Part shown: piece by piece, positions 216 to 31,831 of the stretch | How positions within the stretch are numbered: position 1 is the first letter of the stretch | Layout: each line of letters starts with the position of its first letter | NCBI GenBank assembly: GCA_014728175.1 | Contig: WJMA01000015.1 | Location: 72,646 to 136,645 of the forward strand | Reading direction: 5' to 3' | Source: Candidatus Fermentibacterota bacterium | GTDB lineage: Bacteria > Fermentibacterota > Fermentibacteria > Fermentibacterales > JCC-6 | DNA: 64,000 nucleotides | The notes under the pieces: model-generated | Told to the model about the DNA's origin: nothing | The model's database searches: none | What the model saw: only the letters and a program-made list of their open reading frames with translations | Position numbers and translations under genes: made by a program

Positions 216-292
216 TGGTACGCCCGACAGGATTCGAACCTGTGACCTGCGGATTAGAAGTCCGCTGCTCTGTCCAGCTGAGCTACGGGCGC
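216..292 (-). tRNA. tRNA-Arg(TCT)
   Basis: Reverse complement GCGCCCGTAGCTCAGCTGGACAGAGCA-GCGGA CT TCT AA TCCGC-...GGTTCGAATCC...GGGCGT ACCA; cloverleaf with encoded CCA. Confidence 0.96.
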
Positions 293-304
293 ATTGGTAG
301 GCGT

Positions 305-333
305 ATTCTAGGCAATCACGTGGCTCGGGGCAA
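305..333 (-). promoter_or_regulatory. Putative sigma70 promoter for tRNA-Arg
   Basis: Minus strand TTGCCC-N17-TAGAAT ending 12 nt before the tRNA 5' end. Confidence 0.6.
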
Positions 334-340
334 ACCGCTT

Positions 341-364
341 GAGGGGGCACGTACGTGCCCCCTC
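341..364. terminator. Perfect 24-bp palindrome/hairpin after tRNA-Lys
   Basis: GAGGGGGCACGTACGTGCCCCCTC is self-complementary and lies 3 nt from the tRNA-Lys CCA end. Confidence 0.55.
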
Positions 365-367
365 GAC

Positions 368-443
368 TGGTACGTCCCCCGGGAATCGAACCCGGAACCT
401 ACGGATTAAGAGTCCGTTGCTCTGCCAGTTGAGCTAGGGACGC
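368..443 (-). tRNA. tRNA-Lys(CTT)
   Basis: Reverse complement GCGTCCCTAGCTCAACTGGCAGAGCA-ACGGA CT CTT AA TCCGT-...GGTTCGATTCC...ACCA. Confidence 0.96.
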
Positions 444-449
444 ATTGGG

Positions 450-526
450 TGGGGTGGGAGACCGGATTTGAACCGGCGACCACCTGATCCACAGTCAGGG
501 GCTCTACCAACTGAACTACTCCCACC
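450..526 (-). tRNA. tRNA-His(GTG)
   Basis: Reverse complement GGTGGGAGTAGTTCAGTTGGTAGAGC-CCTGA CT GTG GA TCAGG-...GGTTCAAATCC...CTCCCACCCCA; encoded G-1:C73 pair typical of tRNA-His. Confidence 0.96.
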
Positions 527-18646: not shown

Positions 18647-20097
18647 CCCTGTCCGAGCTACTTTCCGGAACCCGGATCGAGTGCCCGGAAACACTGGGGC
18701 AACGAATCGTCCGGGGCATTACCAACGATTCCAGGAATGTTACCGAGGACATGCTGTTTCTGGCGGTCAGGGGCTTCCGGACCGACGGGCACAGGTTCGT
18801 CGATCATGCCCTGGATGCGGGGGCGCTGGCTGCCATAGTGGAGACCCCCGTCGATTCCGTTAACGCCGGGACGCTGCTGAATCCCGATGGGGATAACAGA
18901 AGCCTGTTGGGCGTTCTCTCGGCCAAGTTCTACGGGCATCCCTGGGAGGATCTGCTTACGGTGGGGGTCACCGGAACCAACGGAAAGACCTCCACGGCGA
19001 GGATGCTGGCCTGGATCCTGGAGGGCCACGGTATGGGCTGCGGCCTGCTGGGCACGATAGGCTACGTGGTCGCGGGTAAGACTATGCAGGCCCGGGTAAC
19101 CACGCCTGAGTCACACCAGCTGACCCGTCTTCTGGATATGATGCGGCGCTCCGGAGACGATTGCTGCGTAATGGAACTCTCCAGCCATGCCCTGGCCTTG
19201 AAGAGGGCGGATCAGGTCCGGTTGGACGTGGCCGTCTTCACCAACATCTCCCAGGACCATCTCGATTTCCATTCGGACATGGGCGAGTACCTCAGGACCA
19301 AGATGCACATTTTCGACCTGATCAAACCCTCCGGTCGGGCGGTCATAGGGACCTACAGGCCGGGCTCCCCCTCCATCGAGGGTGCCGTCACCTTCGGGGT
19401 CTGTGAGTCCGACGACTACACGATAGAGGAGATAGAGGTGGGCCCCGGAAGGGCGAGTTACCGGATGAGCTGGGACGACGATTCCAGGCGGGTGAAGCTG
19501 AGCATAAGCGGCCGGGTCAACGTATTCAACAGCGCCGGCGCCCTGGCGACGGCCCTGGAGCTGGGGCTGGATCCCGACGAGGCCATATCCTCCCTGGCCG
19601 GTTTCCCGGGAGTCCCGGGCAGGCTGGAGCCGATAGACGAGGGCCAGGATTTCGAGGTGGTGGTCGATTACGCCCACACTCCGGATGCCCTGGAGAGAGC
19701 GCTTCAGCAGGCCAGGGAGATGACTGATAACAGGGTTCTGGTCGTCTTCGGAGCGGGAGGAGACCGGGACCGCAAGAAAAGGCCTATCATGGGCAGAATT
19801 GCCTCCGAGTCCGCCGAACTGGCCGTGGTAACCAGCGACAATCCCAGGACCGAAGACCCCAGAGGGATCATTGAGGAGATCCTTCAGGGCATGACCGGCC
19901 ATGCGGAGAAGATCGTACAGGCCGACCGCCGCAAGGCCATACGGCTGGCGGTGGAAAAGGCCCGGCCCGGTGACGTGGTTCTGATCGCCGGCAAGGGACA
20001 CGAGGATTACCAGGTGCTGGGTACCGAGAGGGTGCATTTCGACGACTGCGAGGAGGCCAGAAAGGCCCTTCGGTCATCTTCGGATGGTGGAGAATGA
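18643..20097 (+). CDS. murE: UDP-MurNAc-tripeptide synthetase (meso-DAP type)
   Basis: GVTGTNGKTS, TTPE, DYAHTPD, SDNPR (DAP specificity motif), AGKGHE. Confidence 0.95.
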   Translation: MTLSELLSGTRIECPETLGQRIVRGITNDSRNVTEDMLFLAVRGFRTDGHRFVDHALDAGALAAIVETPVDSVNAGTLLNPDGDNRSLLGVLSAKFYGHPWEDLLTVGVTGTNGKTSTARMLAWILEGHGMGCGLLGTIGYVVAGKTMQARVTTPESHQLTRLLDMMRRSGDDCCVMELSSHALALKRADQVRLDVAVFTNISQDHLDFHSDMGEYLRTKMHIFDLIKPSGRAVIGTYRPGSPSIEGAVTFGVCESDDYTIEEIEVGPGRASYRMSWDDDSRRVKLSISGRVNVFNSAGALATALELGLDPDEAISSLAGFPGVPGRLEPIDEGQDFEVVVDYAHTPDALERALQQAREMTDNRVLVVFGAGGDRDRKKRPIMGRIASESAELAVVTSDNPRTEDPRGIIEEILQGMTGHAEKIVQADRRKAIRLAVEKARPGDVVLIAGKGHEDYQVLGTERVHFDDCEEARKALRSSSDGGE

Positions 20098-31434: not shown

Positions 31435-31462
31435 TTGACACTGGTGAGGAACCTGTGATAAT
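31435..31462 (+). promoter_or_regulatory. Putative sigma70 promoter for ssrA
   Basis: TTGACA (31435-31440) then GATAAT (31457-31462), 17 nt before the tmRNA 5' end. Confidence 0.6.
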
Positions 31463-31479: not shown

Positions 31480-31831
31480 GGGGGCGACAGGTCTCGACGG
31501 GCTCGGAAGTGGTTCCGCGGTTGCATGCCGAGGTCCGCAGCCTCGTAAAACATGCGGAACACACAACTGCCGCGTAATACGGCAACCGCCGCTCCCTAGA
31601 ATCGGAGCGGCCGCTCTCCTCGGCCCGGCCTTCCGGTCGGGGGTAGAGCGTCAGAAGGAAGGCTGGTCGGAAAGCCCAGCTGTCAGGTGTACCGGCGAGA
31701 TTTAAAGGCAGCTACTCCGGGCACGGCCGGTCGGAGTCAAAGCCTGGAGGAAATGCAGCTCCGACCTAAGCATGTAGGAGCTGCGGAGTCCCCGAGTCCG
31801 GACGCGGGTTCGATTCCCGCCGCCTCCACCA
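31480..31831 (+). ncRNA. ssrA: tmRNA (SsrA)
   Basis: 5' GGGGGCG pairs with 3' CGCCTCC-ACCA including the G3:U alanine identity pair; T-arm GCGGGTTCGATTCCCGC; GCATG/CATG helix 2; pk1 CGAGG-TCCGCAG-CCTCG...TGCGGA; pk2-pk4-like pairings. Confidence 0.96.

What the first reader, a model, noticed from the sequence alone, without database searches (positions are those of the whole stretch)
31529..31611. tmRNA whose canonical resume position encodes only Ala-Ala-stop: a minimal (A)AA degradation tag
Seen: the tRNA-like domain and pk1 are intact. pk1 has stem CGAGG/CCTCG, and loop TCCGCA pairs with TGCGGA ending at 31558. A 10-nt spacer ending ACAACT follows, then GCC(31569) GCG TAA. TGCCG(31568-72) and CGGCA(31580-84) can form a hairpin with the TAA in its loop, as helix 5 does for normal tags. 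Established: in E. coli the resume codon lies about 11 nt after pk1 with A at -4, typical tags are about 10 residues, and the C-terminal Ala-Ala is the core ClpXP determinant. RqcH Ala-tailing shows that bare Ala tails can act as degrons. Inference: this tmRNA would append just AAA, with no adaptor (SspB/ClpA-type) segment, far shorter than any tag I know. Alternative: resumption at the in-frame GCG 31554 gives AEHTTAA*, but that codon lies inside pk1 stem 2.
Basis: partly seen in the sequence, partly recalled or inferred. Interest (0 to 1): 0.85.

Follow-up and report, generated by a model that had tools for sequence, protein, structure and literature searches.

The report
tmRNA with two-alanine tag, already reported
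This is a real ribosome-rescue RNA (tmRNA) whose built-in message is only Ala-Ala-stop; every assembled member of its phylum (Fermentibacterota) shares this, and a 2025 tmRNA database paper already noted it, though nobody has tested how it works.

Summary
Window 31480-31831 (+) is a full-length, single-copy tmRNA (Rfam RF00023, 167.7 bits). The model's resume codon falls on GCC 31569, followed by GCG and TAA.

It is not an assembly error. In the 70 genomes held for the phylum, 61 carry the same frame, and the other 9 have no tmRNA assembled. Across 52 distinct sequences:
- Codon 1 is always GCC.
- Codon 2 uses all four Ala codons.
- The stop is always TAA.
- A at -4, the known frame-setting base, is invariant.
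- No other frame is conserved.

The true helix 5 lies downstream (31588-31611) and covaries.

The window's genome has SmpB, ClpXP, Lon, ArfB and an RqcH-family protein. SspB is absent from all 70 genomes of the phylum.

The phylum is Candidatus Fermentibacteria (Fermentibacterota). PMC11915505 (2025) already reports "only 2 aa (Ala-Ala)" tags, "especially common among the Fermentibacterota". The finding is therefore real and unusual, but already known. Whether the Ala-Ala-Ala end acts as a degron is untested. E. coli data argue both ways.

Raw reads could not be checked.

The parts
31435..31462 (+). Sigma-70-like promoter: TTGACA, 16 nt, TG-GATAAT. It lies about 18 nt upstream of the mature 5' end.
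   Evidence: 11 of 12 hexamer matches with an extended -10 TG. One site was found against a mean of 0.3 in shuffles. This is a consensus match only.
31480..31831 (+). Complete one-piece tmRNA (ssrA) gene.
   Evidence: RF00023, 167.7 bits, E 1.9e-66, model positions 1-374; it is the only match over the cut-off in the window's own genome.
31480..31486 (+). 5' strand of the acceptor stem (GGGGGCG). It pairs with CGCCUCC 31821-31827, giving a G3-U pair, and is followed by ACCA.
   Evidence: Read directly. That the G3-U pair is the alanine identity element is recalled knowledge.
31529..31558 (+). Pseudoknot 1: CGAGG/CCTCG and TCCGCA/TGCGGA.
   Evidence: Relatives keep the pairing with different sequences (for example CCACC with GGTGG), visible in the alignment. 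No formal count was made.
31559..31568 (+). Single-stranded spacer and resume-site element ACACACAACT. The A at 31565 is position -4.
   Evidence: A at -4 in 52/52, A at -3 in 51/52, A at -6 in 51/52, T at -1 in 50/52. Positions -5 and -2 vary C/T. E. coli A86 at -4 is the main frame determinant (PMC2481249).
31569..31577 (+). Tag reading frame GCC GCG TAA (Ala-Ala-stop).
   Evidence: the Rfam resume codon aligns here. GCC 52/52; codon 2 GCA 31, GCG 12, GCC 7, GCT 2; TAA 52/52; this is the only frame conserved in all 52.
31568..31584 (+). Possible small hairpin UGCCG/CGGCA with the stop codon in its loop.
   Evidence: -6.8 kcal/mol, z -1.87; 76% of cells paired and 0 of 6 pairs with a change on both sides. 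RNAalifold does not predict it. It can form but is unproven.
31588..31611 (+). Helix 5 homologue: GCCGCUCC / GGAGCGGC, with loop CUAGAAUC. It now lies outside the reading frame.
   Evidence: aligned to model helix 5.: -17 kcal/mol, z -4.41; 89% of cells paired and 5 of 8 pairs changed on both sides.
31612..31831 (+). Pseudoknots 2-4 and the 3' half of the tRNA-like domain (T arm GGGUUCGAUUCCC, acceptor 3' strand, CCA).
   Evidence: alignment. Posterior probabilities are lower in pk2-pk4 and high in the T arm and acceptor.

Best explanation
This is the working tmRNA of a Fermentibacterota bacterium, and its mRNA-like part has shrunk to two alanine codons and a stop.

Shown by sequence and comparison:
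- The gene is complete, single-copy and promoter-preceded.
- It has an intact tRNA-like domain, pk1 and a frame-setting A at -4.
- The only conserved frame is GCC GCN UAA.
- This is the state of every assembled tmRNA in the phylum.

Inferred from the established mechanism:
1. Ala-tmRNA with SmpB enters a ribosome stalled on a stop-less mRNA and donates its alanine.
2. The ribosome switches to GCC, adds two more alanines and terminates at UAA through RF1 or RF2.
3. Every rescued chain therefore ends in Ala-Ala-Ala.
4. Ribosome release is the conserved core function.

Further inferred, and less certain (about 55-60%):
- The Ala-Ala-COO- end is read as a degron by ClpXP. The gene pair is present, and ClpX has GYVG and RKH loops.
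- No adaptor is involved, since there is no SspB.
- The efficiency probably depends on the last residues of the truncated protein itself.
For: - Gene identity: RF00023, 167.7 bits; single copy; promoter 11/12.
- Resume site: the Rfam consensus resume codon aligns to GCC 31569. [quoted passage not shown]
- Coding signature: GCC 52/52; codon 2 uses all four Ala codons; TAA 52/52. The 5' strand is invariant while its putative pairing partner tolerates mismatches, so the constraint is on the sequence, not the pairing.
- Other frames give unrelated peptides of 3 to more than 20 residues.
- Phylum-wide: 61 of 70 genomes and 45 of 46 high-quality ones. The 9 misses lack any tmRNA.
- TAA is an ordinary stop here. 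It closes 9 of 58 long frames and ends arfB, and RF1 and RF2 are both present.
- Partners: SmpB, 178 bits, above cut-off, with a basic C-tail; clpP-clpX adjacent; ClpX with GYVG and RKH; Lon.
- Literature: the terminal Ala-Ala-COO- is the most important ClpXP element (PMC7652416). RqcH alanine tails are ClpXP degrons in B. subtilis (PMC8012679). One round of tmRNA translation suffices for rescue in H. pylori (PMC2584231).
- The same reading is published in PMC11915505.
Against: - No direct evidence of expression, tagging or degradation. Read and RNA look-ups failed.
[quoted passage not shown] - The H. pylori minimal-tag mutant was viable but stress-sensitive and non-competent. That mutant's tag ended in Val, not Ala-Ala.
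- Codon 2's free third base would lie in the loop of the possible small hairpin, so its variability alone does not prove translation.
- ARAGORN does not recognise the gene.
Confidence: 0.6

Rival explanations
1. Rescue without efficient tagging. The tmRNA appends AAA, but this is too short to be a reliable degron. The phylum has largely uncoupled ribosome release from targeted proteolysis and leaves truncated proteins to general quality control by Lon, FtsH and chaperones.
For: - E. coli screen: Ala-Ala was not sufficient, and tags under 5 residues were not enriched (PMC10862746).
- Minimal-tag H. pylori is viable, so rescue alone can be enough for life (PMC2584231).
- There is no SspB in 0 of 70 genomes.
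- Lon is present, and ArfB, which rescues without tagging, is also present.
Against: - If the tag's identity did not matter, the two codons should drift. Instead both are Ala in 52 of 52 sequences, and codon 2 changes only synonymously.
- The Ala-Ala-COO- dipeptide is exactly the part of the ssrA tag that ClpX contacts (PMC7652416).
- Ala tails work as ClpXP degrons in B. subtilis.
Confidence: 0.3
2. Translation resumes elsewhere and a longer tag is made. It could start upstream (for example at the in-frame GCG in pk1, or at ACA/ACU just before GCC), or run in another frame to a stop in the helix 5 loop.
For: - ARAGORN proposes longer tags in 13 of the 24 relatives examined.
- Upstream in-frame triplets are open in most sequences, for example ...TTAA and ...ITAA.
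- Helix 5 loops often contain stop triplets, such as the window's TAG 31597-99.
Against: - The 13 ARAGORN calls differ in position, frame and sequence, and 11 of 24 get no call at all.
- The +1 and +2 frames end after 3 to more than 20 codons with unrelated peptides.
- The pk1-to-GCC distance varies between 22 and 25 nt, so pk1 codons are not consistently in frame.
- One sequence (L094) has an in-frame TAG five codons upstream.
- The upstream triplets vary at their middle base and are fixed at their third base, the reverse of a coding pattern.
- The invariant A sits exactly at -4 relative to GCC.
Confidence: 0.06
3. Artefact or dead gene: an assembly indel truncates an ordinary tag, or the gene is a decaying copy.
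For: Raw reads could not be inspected. ARAGORN fails on it.
Against: - The same frame is found in 61 independently assembled genomes from 13 genera.
- It is the only tmRNA in the genome.
- All structural domains score well, helix 5 covaries, and SmpB is intact.
Confidence: 0.02

Closest known systems
[quoted passage not shown]
   Same: The same phylum, the same reading frame (two Ala codons then a stop at the resume site) and the same conclusion. [quoted passage not shown]
   Different: The paper gives only two sentences and a count of 25 sequences, with no analysis of conservation, structure or partner genes.
- the motif in 61 of 61 assembled tmRNAs of the phylum;
- synonymous-codon and -4 A statistics;
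- a retained, covarying helix 5;
- an inventory of SspB, RqcH, ArfB and ClpXP.
The paper's supplementary files could not be opened, so I cannot say whether this very sequence is among the 25.
Canonical ssrA tag / tmRNA (E. coli AANDENYALAA)
   Same: The tRNA-like domain, pk1, a roughly 10-nt A-rich spacer with A at -4, a GCN resume codon, a UAA stop, the SmpB partner, and a product ending in Ala-Ala-COO-.
   Different: - Eight internal residues are missing, so the SspB- and ClpA-binding parts and the Leu at -3 are absent.
- The stop codon lies 11 nt upstream of helix 5 rather than in its loop.
RqcH/NEMF alanine tailing (bacterial RQC)
   Same: The end product is a nascent chain with a short C-terminal alanine run, which in B. 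subtilis is a ClpXP degron (PMC8012679). An RqcH-family gene is present in 69 of 70 genomes of the phylum.
   Different: RqcH tails are made without a template on split 50S subunits and vary in length. Here the alanines are templated on a 70S ribosome, number exactly three, and are followed by normal termination.
Engineered minimal-tag tmRNA (H. pylori SsrA-STOP; PMC2584231)
   Same: A stop codon soon after the resume codon still supports ribosome rescue and viability.
   Different: That construct is engineered rather than natural. It appends Ala-Val, not Ala-Ala-Ala, and it caused stress sensitivity and loss of competence.
tmRNAs without a tag frame (mitochondrial forms, Nasuia, some plastid and phage mini-forms; PMC11915505)
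   Same: An extreme reduction of the mRNA-like function.
   Different: Here a resume codon, a frame and a stop are all kept and are strictly conserved, so full trans-translation with termination is expected.

Membership tests
tmRNA (Rfam RF00023) | Covariance-model score at or above the gathering score over the full model | tested here: met
   167.7 bits against 47, model positions 1-374, not truncated.
tmRNA (Rfam RF00023) | tRNA-Ala-like acceptor stem with a G3-U pair, a T arm and a 3' CCA | tested here: met
   5' GGGGGCG pairs with CGCCUCC, followed by ACCA; the T arm is GGGUUCGAUUCCC. That G3-U is the AlaRS identity element is recalled knowledge. Charging itself is not testable here.
tmRNA (Rfam RF00023) | Pseudoknot 1 followed by a single-stranded spacer with A at -4 and a GCN resume codon | tested here: met
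   pk1 at 31529-58, a 10-nt spacer, A at -4 in 52/52 and GCC in 52/52.
tmRNA (Rfam RF00023) | Tag frame of the usual length (most often 10 aa) with its stop codon in the loop of helix 5 | tested here: not met
   The frame is 2 codons. TAA 31575-77 lies upstream of helix 5 (31588-31611). This feature is typical rather than required. The family curators accept such sequences.
tmRNA (Rfam RF00023) | SmpB partner encoded in the genome | tested here: met
   NF003843 at 178.2 bits (cut-off 130) and PF01668 at 175.8 bits. A basic C-terminal tail is present.
2-aa Ala-Ala-tag tmRNAs of Fermentibacterota (PMC11915505) | Two Ala codons then a stop at the resume position | tested here: met
2-aa Ala-Ala-tag tmRNAs of Fermentibacterota (PMC11915505) | Organism belongs to the phylum Fermentibacterota | tested here: met
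   The window's genome was grouped by the tool with 69 others as one phylum. Identical tmRNA sequences link several of those genomes to public records titled Candidatus Fermentibacteria, Aegiribacteria, Sabulitectum, Fermentibacter daniensis and Hyd24-12. The window's own record name was not shown.
ssrA-type ClpXP degron | C-terminal Ala-Ala with a free carboxylate | tested here: met
   This is the encoded product of the frame. PMC7652416 names this dipeptide as the key element. It is a prediction from sequence, not an observed protein end.
ssrA-type ClpXP degron | Supporting upstream residues (Leu at -3; at least 5 residues in E. coli screens) and an SspB-binding segment | tested here: not met
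   The tag supplies only Ala at -3, and further upstream residues come from the truncated protein. The requirement is from PMC10862746. SspB is absent in 0 of 70 genomes.
ssrA-type ClpXP degron | Tagged proteins are degraded by ClpXP | not testable with these tools
   Only the presence of the genes is shown: clpP-clpX and ClpX with GYVG and RKH loops (the motif names are recalled).
RqcH/NEMF alanine tailing | Alanines added without a template on the 50S subunit by an NFACT protein | tested here: not met
   The alanines here are encoded by codons in the tmRNA. An RqcH-family gene (NFACT_N at 170.3 bits plus NFACT-R_1 at 36.6 bits) exists separately in the genome. The tmRNA works like this system in its product, but it is not a member.

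The most novel reading that the evidence does not exclude
In Fermentibacterota the two nascent-chain quality-control routes have converged on a single oligo-alanine C-terminal degron. Trans-translation adds exactly Ala-Ala-Ala, RqcH-type RQC (present in 69 of 70 genomes) adds alanine tails, and one protease system, most likely ClpXP without any adaptor, reads both. On this reading the long ssrA tag became dispensable once the protease accepted bare alanine ends whatever lies upstream. This has not been proposed in the passages I read. It is weakened by two observations: RqcH also coexists with ordinary tags (1 of 5 outgroups; B. subtilis, recalled), and an unrelated MAG with an all-Ala tag has no RqcH.
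Probability: 0.3. Interest if true: 0.6.

Novelty: already known. Interest (0 to 1): 0.35.

Why it matters
The ssrA tag is the textbook example of a co-translationally added degron. A whole phylum that keeps only its last two alanines is a natural experiment on what the tag minimally needs. It can show whether Ala-Ala-COO- alone is enough for ClpXP in some bacteria, or whether ribosome release is the only indispensable function of trans-translation.

There is also a practical consequence. ARAGORN missed or mis-called all 24 tmRNAs of this phylum that I gave it, so annotation pipelines that rely on it will report no tmRNA or a false tag for these genomes.

Tried and rejected
1. It finds no tmRNA in the window. 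On the 24 relatives it gives nothing for 11 and inconsistent tags for 13, so it cannot fix the resume codon here. Rfam did that instead.

Expression and base-level accuracy remain unchecked, and cross-genome conservation stands in for them.

4. The small hairpin as a conserved element. RNAalifold does not predict it, and it has no compensatory change. MAFFT also misaligns one genus, in which the 3' strand follows the stop directly. It is therefore neither supported nor excluded.

5. A collection-wide scan for other minimal tags. Of the 119 stretches:
   - 47 are tmRNAs like the window's, and all 47 carry the motif.
   - I read the matched strings of the other 72, except L054, where my pattern found no string.
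   - 14 of those 72 went to Rfam. Four are tmRNAs: L055, L075, L119 and the truncated L151.
   - The remaining 58 were judged by eye only to be chance hits in coding DNA.

6. A link between RqcH and the short tag was considered and found weak.

7. One fetched outgroup locus (L034, family f8) was not recovered by nhmmer and was left out.

8. Literature searches found no functional study of a natural 2-aa tag.

Full report
**What is there**

Window 31480-31831 (+) is a complete one-piece tmRNA. Rfam RF00023 scores it 167.7 bits against a gathering score of 47, over model positions 1-374. It is the only match above the cut-off in the window's 2.6 Mb genome.

A near-consensus sigma-70-type promoter lies at 31435-31462: TTGACA, 16 nt, TG-GATAAT, with 11 of 12 matches.

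- pk1 is CGAGG/CCTCG and TCCGCA/TGCGGA, ending at 31558.
- The spacer is 10 nt and ends ACAACT.
- GCC is at 31569, then GCG, then TAA at 31575-77.

The Rfam alignment puts the model's consensus resume codon on GCC 31569.

**It is a lineage trait, not an error**

- tmRNAs from 24 genomes of the same order all carry GCC GCN TAA at the same place. Five outgroup genomes have ordinary tags: ANSNEYALAA, GNYNYALAA, ANDYALAA, ANDYDVAVAA and ANEVALAA. One further outgroup locus, L034, was not recovered by nhmmer and was left out.
- A structural pattern (pk1 5' strand, pk1 3' strand, 15-32 nt, then GCN GCN TAA) hits 61 of the 70 genomes held for the whole phylum. That includes 45 of 46 genomes that are at least 90% complete. 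The reversed control pattern hits none.
- The nine genomes without a hit have no tmRNA at E<=1e-18 (0 of 5, 0 of 4). Every assembled tmRNA of the phylum therefore has the two-codon frame.
- Record titles from a scan of all species genomes name the group as Candidatus Fermentibacteria / Hyd24-12, with genera Aegiribacteria, Sabulitectum and Fermentibacter.

**Evidence that the frame is read at GCC**

Pooling all loci gave 52 distinct tmRNA sequences. Their statistics:

| Position | Result |
|---|---|
| Codon 1 | GCC in 52/52 |
| Codon 2 | GCA 31, GCG 12, GCC 7, GCT 2 |
| Stop | TAA in 52/52 |
| -4 | A in 52/52 |
| -3 | A in 51/52 |
| -6 | A in 51/52 |
| -1 | T in 50/52 |
| -5 and -2 | vary between C and T |

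- If the upstream triplets were codons, their middle bases would be changing and their third bases would be fixed. That is the reverse of a coding pattern.
- The pattern fits the known recognition element. [quoted passage not shown]
- The +1 and +2 frames give unrelated peptides of 3 to more than 20 residues.
The distance from pk1 to GCC varies between 22 and 25 nt among relatives.
- TAA is an ordinary stop in this genome. It closes 9 of 58 long open frames in the window and ends arfB, and both class-I release factors are present.

**Structure around the frame**

  - Across the phylum 76% of its cells pair, but none of its six pairs shows a change on both sides. RNAalifold does not predict it.
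  - Its 5' strand is the invariant tag itself, so covariation cannot settle the matter.
  - The 3' strand tolerates mismatches while the 5' strand never changes. That points to a constraint on the sequence, not on the pairing.
- The element that Rfam aligns as helix 5 is a different, stronger hairpin at 31588-95/31604-11 (-17 kcal/mol, z -4.41).
  - 89% of its cells pair, and 5 of 8 pairs change on both sides.
  - Helix 5 has therefore been kept as a structural element, but the stop codon has moved out of its loop.
  - The TAG in the window's loop (31597-99) is out of frame.

**Partners in the window's genome and the phylum**

| Component | Result |
|---|---|
| SmpB | Present, 178.2 bits (cut-off 130), normal basic C-terminal tail |
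| clpP-clpX | Adjacent; ClpX has the zinc finger, a GYVG pore loop and an RKH loop (motif names recalled) |
| Lon | Present |
| ArfB | Present, equivalog model at 161.3 bits (cut-off 100) |
| ArfA | Not found in the window's genome |
| SspB | Not found in 0 of 70 genomes |
| RqcH-family (NFACT_N plus NFACT-R_1) | Present in the window's genome and in 69 of 70 genomes of the phylum |

**How it most likely works**

Steps shown:
- the gene, its frame, its conservation and its partner genes.

Steps inferred from the established mechanism:
1. Ala-tmRNA with SmpB enters the stalled ribosome.
2. The nascent chain receives the charged alanine.
3. Translation resumes at GCC and adds two more alanines.
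4. Translation ends at UAA, releasing a chain that ends in Ala-Ala-Ala.

Whether that end is a degron is open.

In favour:
- The Ala-Ala-COO- dipeptide is the most important ClpXP element of the ssrA tag and is what the ClpX pore contacts (PMC7652416).
- RqcH-made alanine tails are ClpXP degrons in B. subtilis (PMC8012679).
- Both codons are held as alanine across the phylum, which would be unexpected if the residues did not matter.

Against:
- In an E. coli screen Ala-Ala was necessary but not sufficient. No tag under five residues was enriched. The authors blame the Gly/Ser linker upstream in part (PMC10862746).
- An engineered minimal tag in H. pylori supports viability, so rescue alone can suffice. 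That tag ended in Val, and the mutant was stress-sensitive (PMC2584231).

I put about 85% on AAA being appended and about 55-60% on it serving as a protease signal.

**Comparison with what is known**

This is already in print. [quoted passage not shown] - The paper says nothing more on conservation, structure or partners in the text I read.
- My other searches found no functional study of a natural two-residue tag.
- The 2014 survey 'Ends of the line for tmRNA-SmpB' does not mention one in the passages returned.

The window's gene is therefore one more member of a published class.

- The trait is universal in the phylum as assembled.
- The synonymous-codon and -4 A statistics.
- Helix 5 is retained and covaries.
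- ARAGORN missed or mis-called all 24 tmRNAs of the phylum that it was given.
- The inventory of ClpXP, Lon, ArfB and RqcH with no SspB.

The co-occurrence with RqcH suggests that the two pathways converge on one oligo-alanine degron, but the link is not specific:
- Only 1 of 5 outgroup genomes with ordinary tags has RqcH over the cut-off.
- An unrelated genome with an all-Ala tag has none.

**Other minimal tags seen in passing**

Outside the phylum, most hits are chance matches in coding DNA. I judged most of these by eye; 14 of the 72 non-phylum stretches were tested with Rfam.

Two are real tmRNAs with all-Ala frames at the Rfam resume codon:
- **L075**, from a 0.9 Mb Pseudomonadota MAG, has GCA GCG GCT TAA. 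Its relatives have ordinary tags of 7-27 residues: ARAGORN gave tags for 16 of 20 loci.
- **L119** has GCA GCG TAA at 151.3 bits. It is a second tmRNA in a 1.6 Mb genome whose main copy encodes ANNDFALAA. It lies on a contig with two further ~112-nt tmRNA-like matches. This looks like a mobile element or a foreign contig.

**Verdict**

- The hairpin detail is unproven, and the true helix 5 lies elsewhere.
- The degron function is inferred only.
- Novelty: already known.
- Interest: modest. The open and testable question is whether bare Ala-Ala-Ala is a working degron.

Noticed in passing
window 216-525 (-): A cluster of three tRNA genes: Arg-TCT (216-292), Lys-CTT (368-443) and His-GTG (450-525).
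   Followed up: no
L001, L012-L036 (tmRNAs of the phylum): ARAGORN finds nothing in 11 of the 24 tmRNAs and proposes 13 mutually inconsistent long tags in the rest. Pipelines that rely on it will miss or mis-annotate ssrA across this phylum.
   Followed up: partly
L075:1627-1984 (-) (also held as L177): An unrelated 0.9 Mb Pseudomonadota MAG has a tmRNA (138.2 bits) with GCA GCG GCT TAA at the Rfam resume codon, a three-codon all-alanine tag. Its relatives carry ordinary tags of 7-27 residues: ARAGORN gave tags for 16 of 20 loci. That genome has no NFACT_N hit. It is an isolated case, and an assembly error is not excluded.
   Followed up: partly
L119:6709-7050 (-); same contig G097:C2:12849-12960 and 19939-20051: A 1.6 Mb genome holds two full tmRNAs. 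The main one (L192) encodes ANNDFALAA. A second one, at 151.3 bits, has GCA GCG TAA at the resume codon. Two ~112-nt tmRNA-like matches lie within about 13 kb on the same contig. This may be a mobile element carrying tmRNA variants, or a mis-binned contig.
   Followed up: partly
L055:2189-2569 (+): A tmRNA from a Bacteroidia MAG (137.4 bits) has a 52-nt unaligned stretch after the resume codon and an odd predicted tag. ARAGORN gives ADSKKSVARCLICQAN. Its GCTGCTTAA is out of frame with the Rfam resume codon.
   Followed up: no
G054 (contigs C127 and C209): One genome of the phylum carries two different tmRNAs with the Ala-Ala frame on two contigs. With 4% contamination, it is probably a mixed bin.
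   Followed up: no
window 31596-31603 and the same loop in relatives (alignment A1 columns 85-94): Helix 5 loops often still contain a stop triplet: TAG in the window, and TGA, TAA or TAG in many relatives. The triplet falls in different frames relative to GCC in different genera. It may be a relic of the ancestral stop position. I did not count these.
   Followed up: partly
G000:C60:36925-37296 (L161:1474-1905): The arfB reading frame stays open for about 276 codons upstream of its likely start. The true start was not determined.
   Followed up: no
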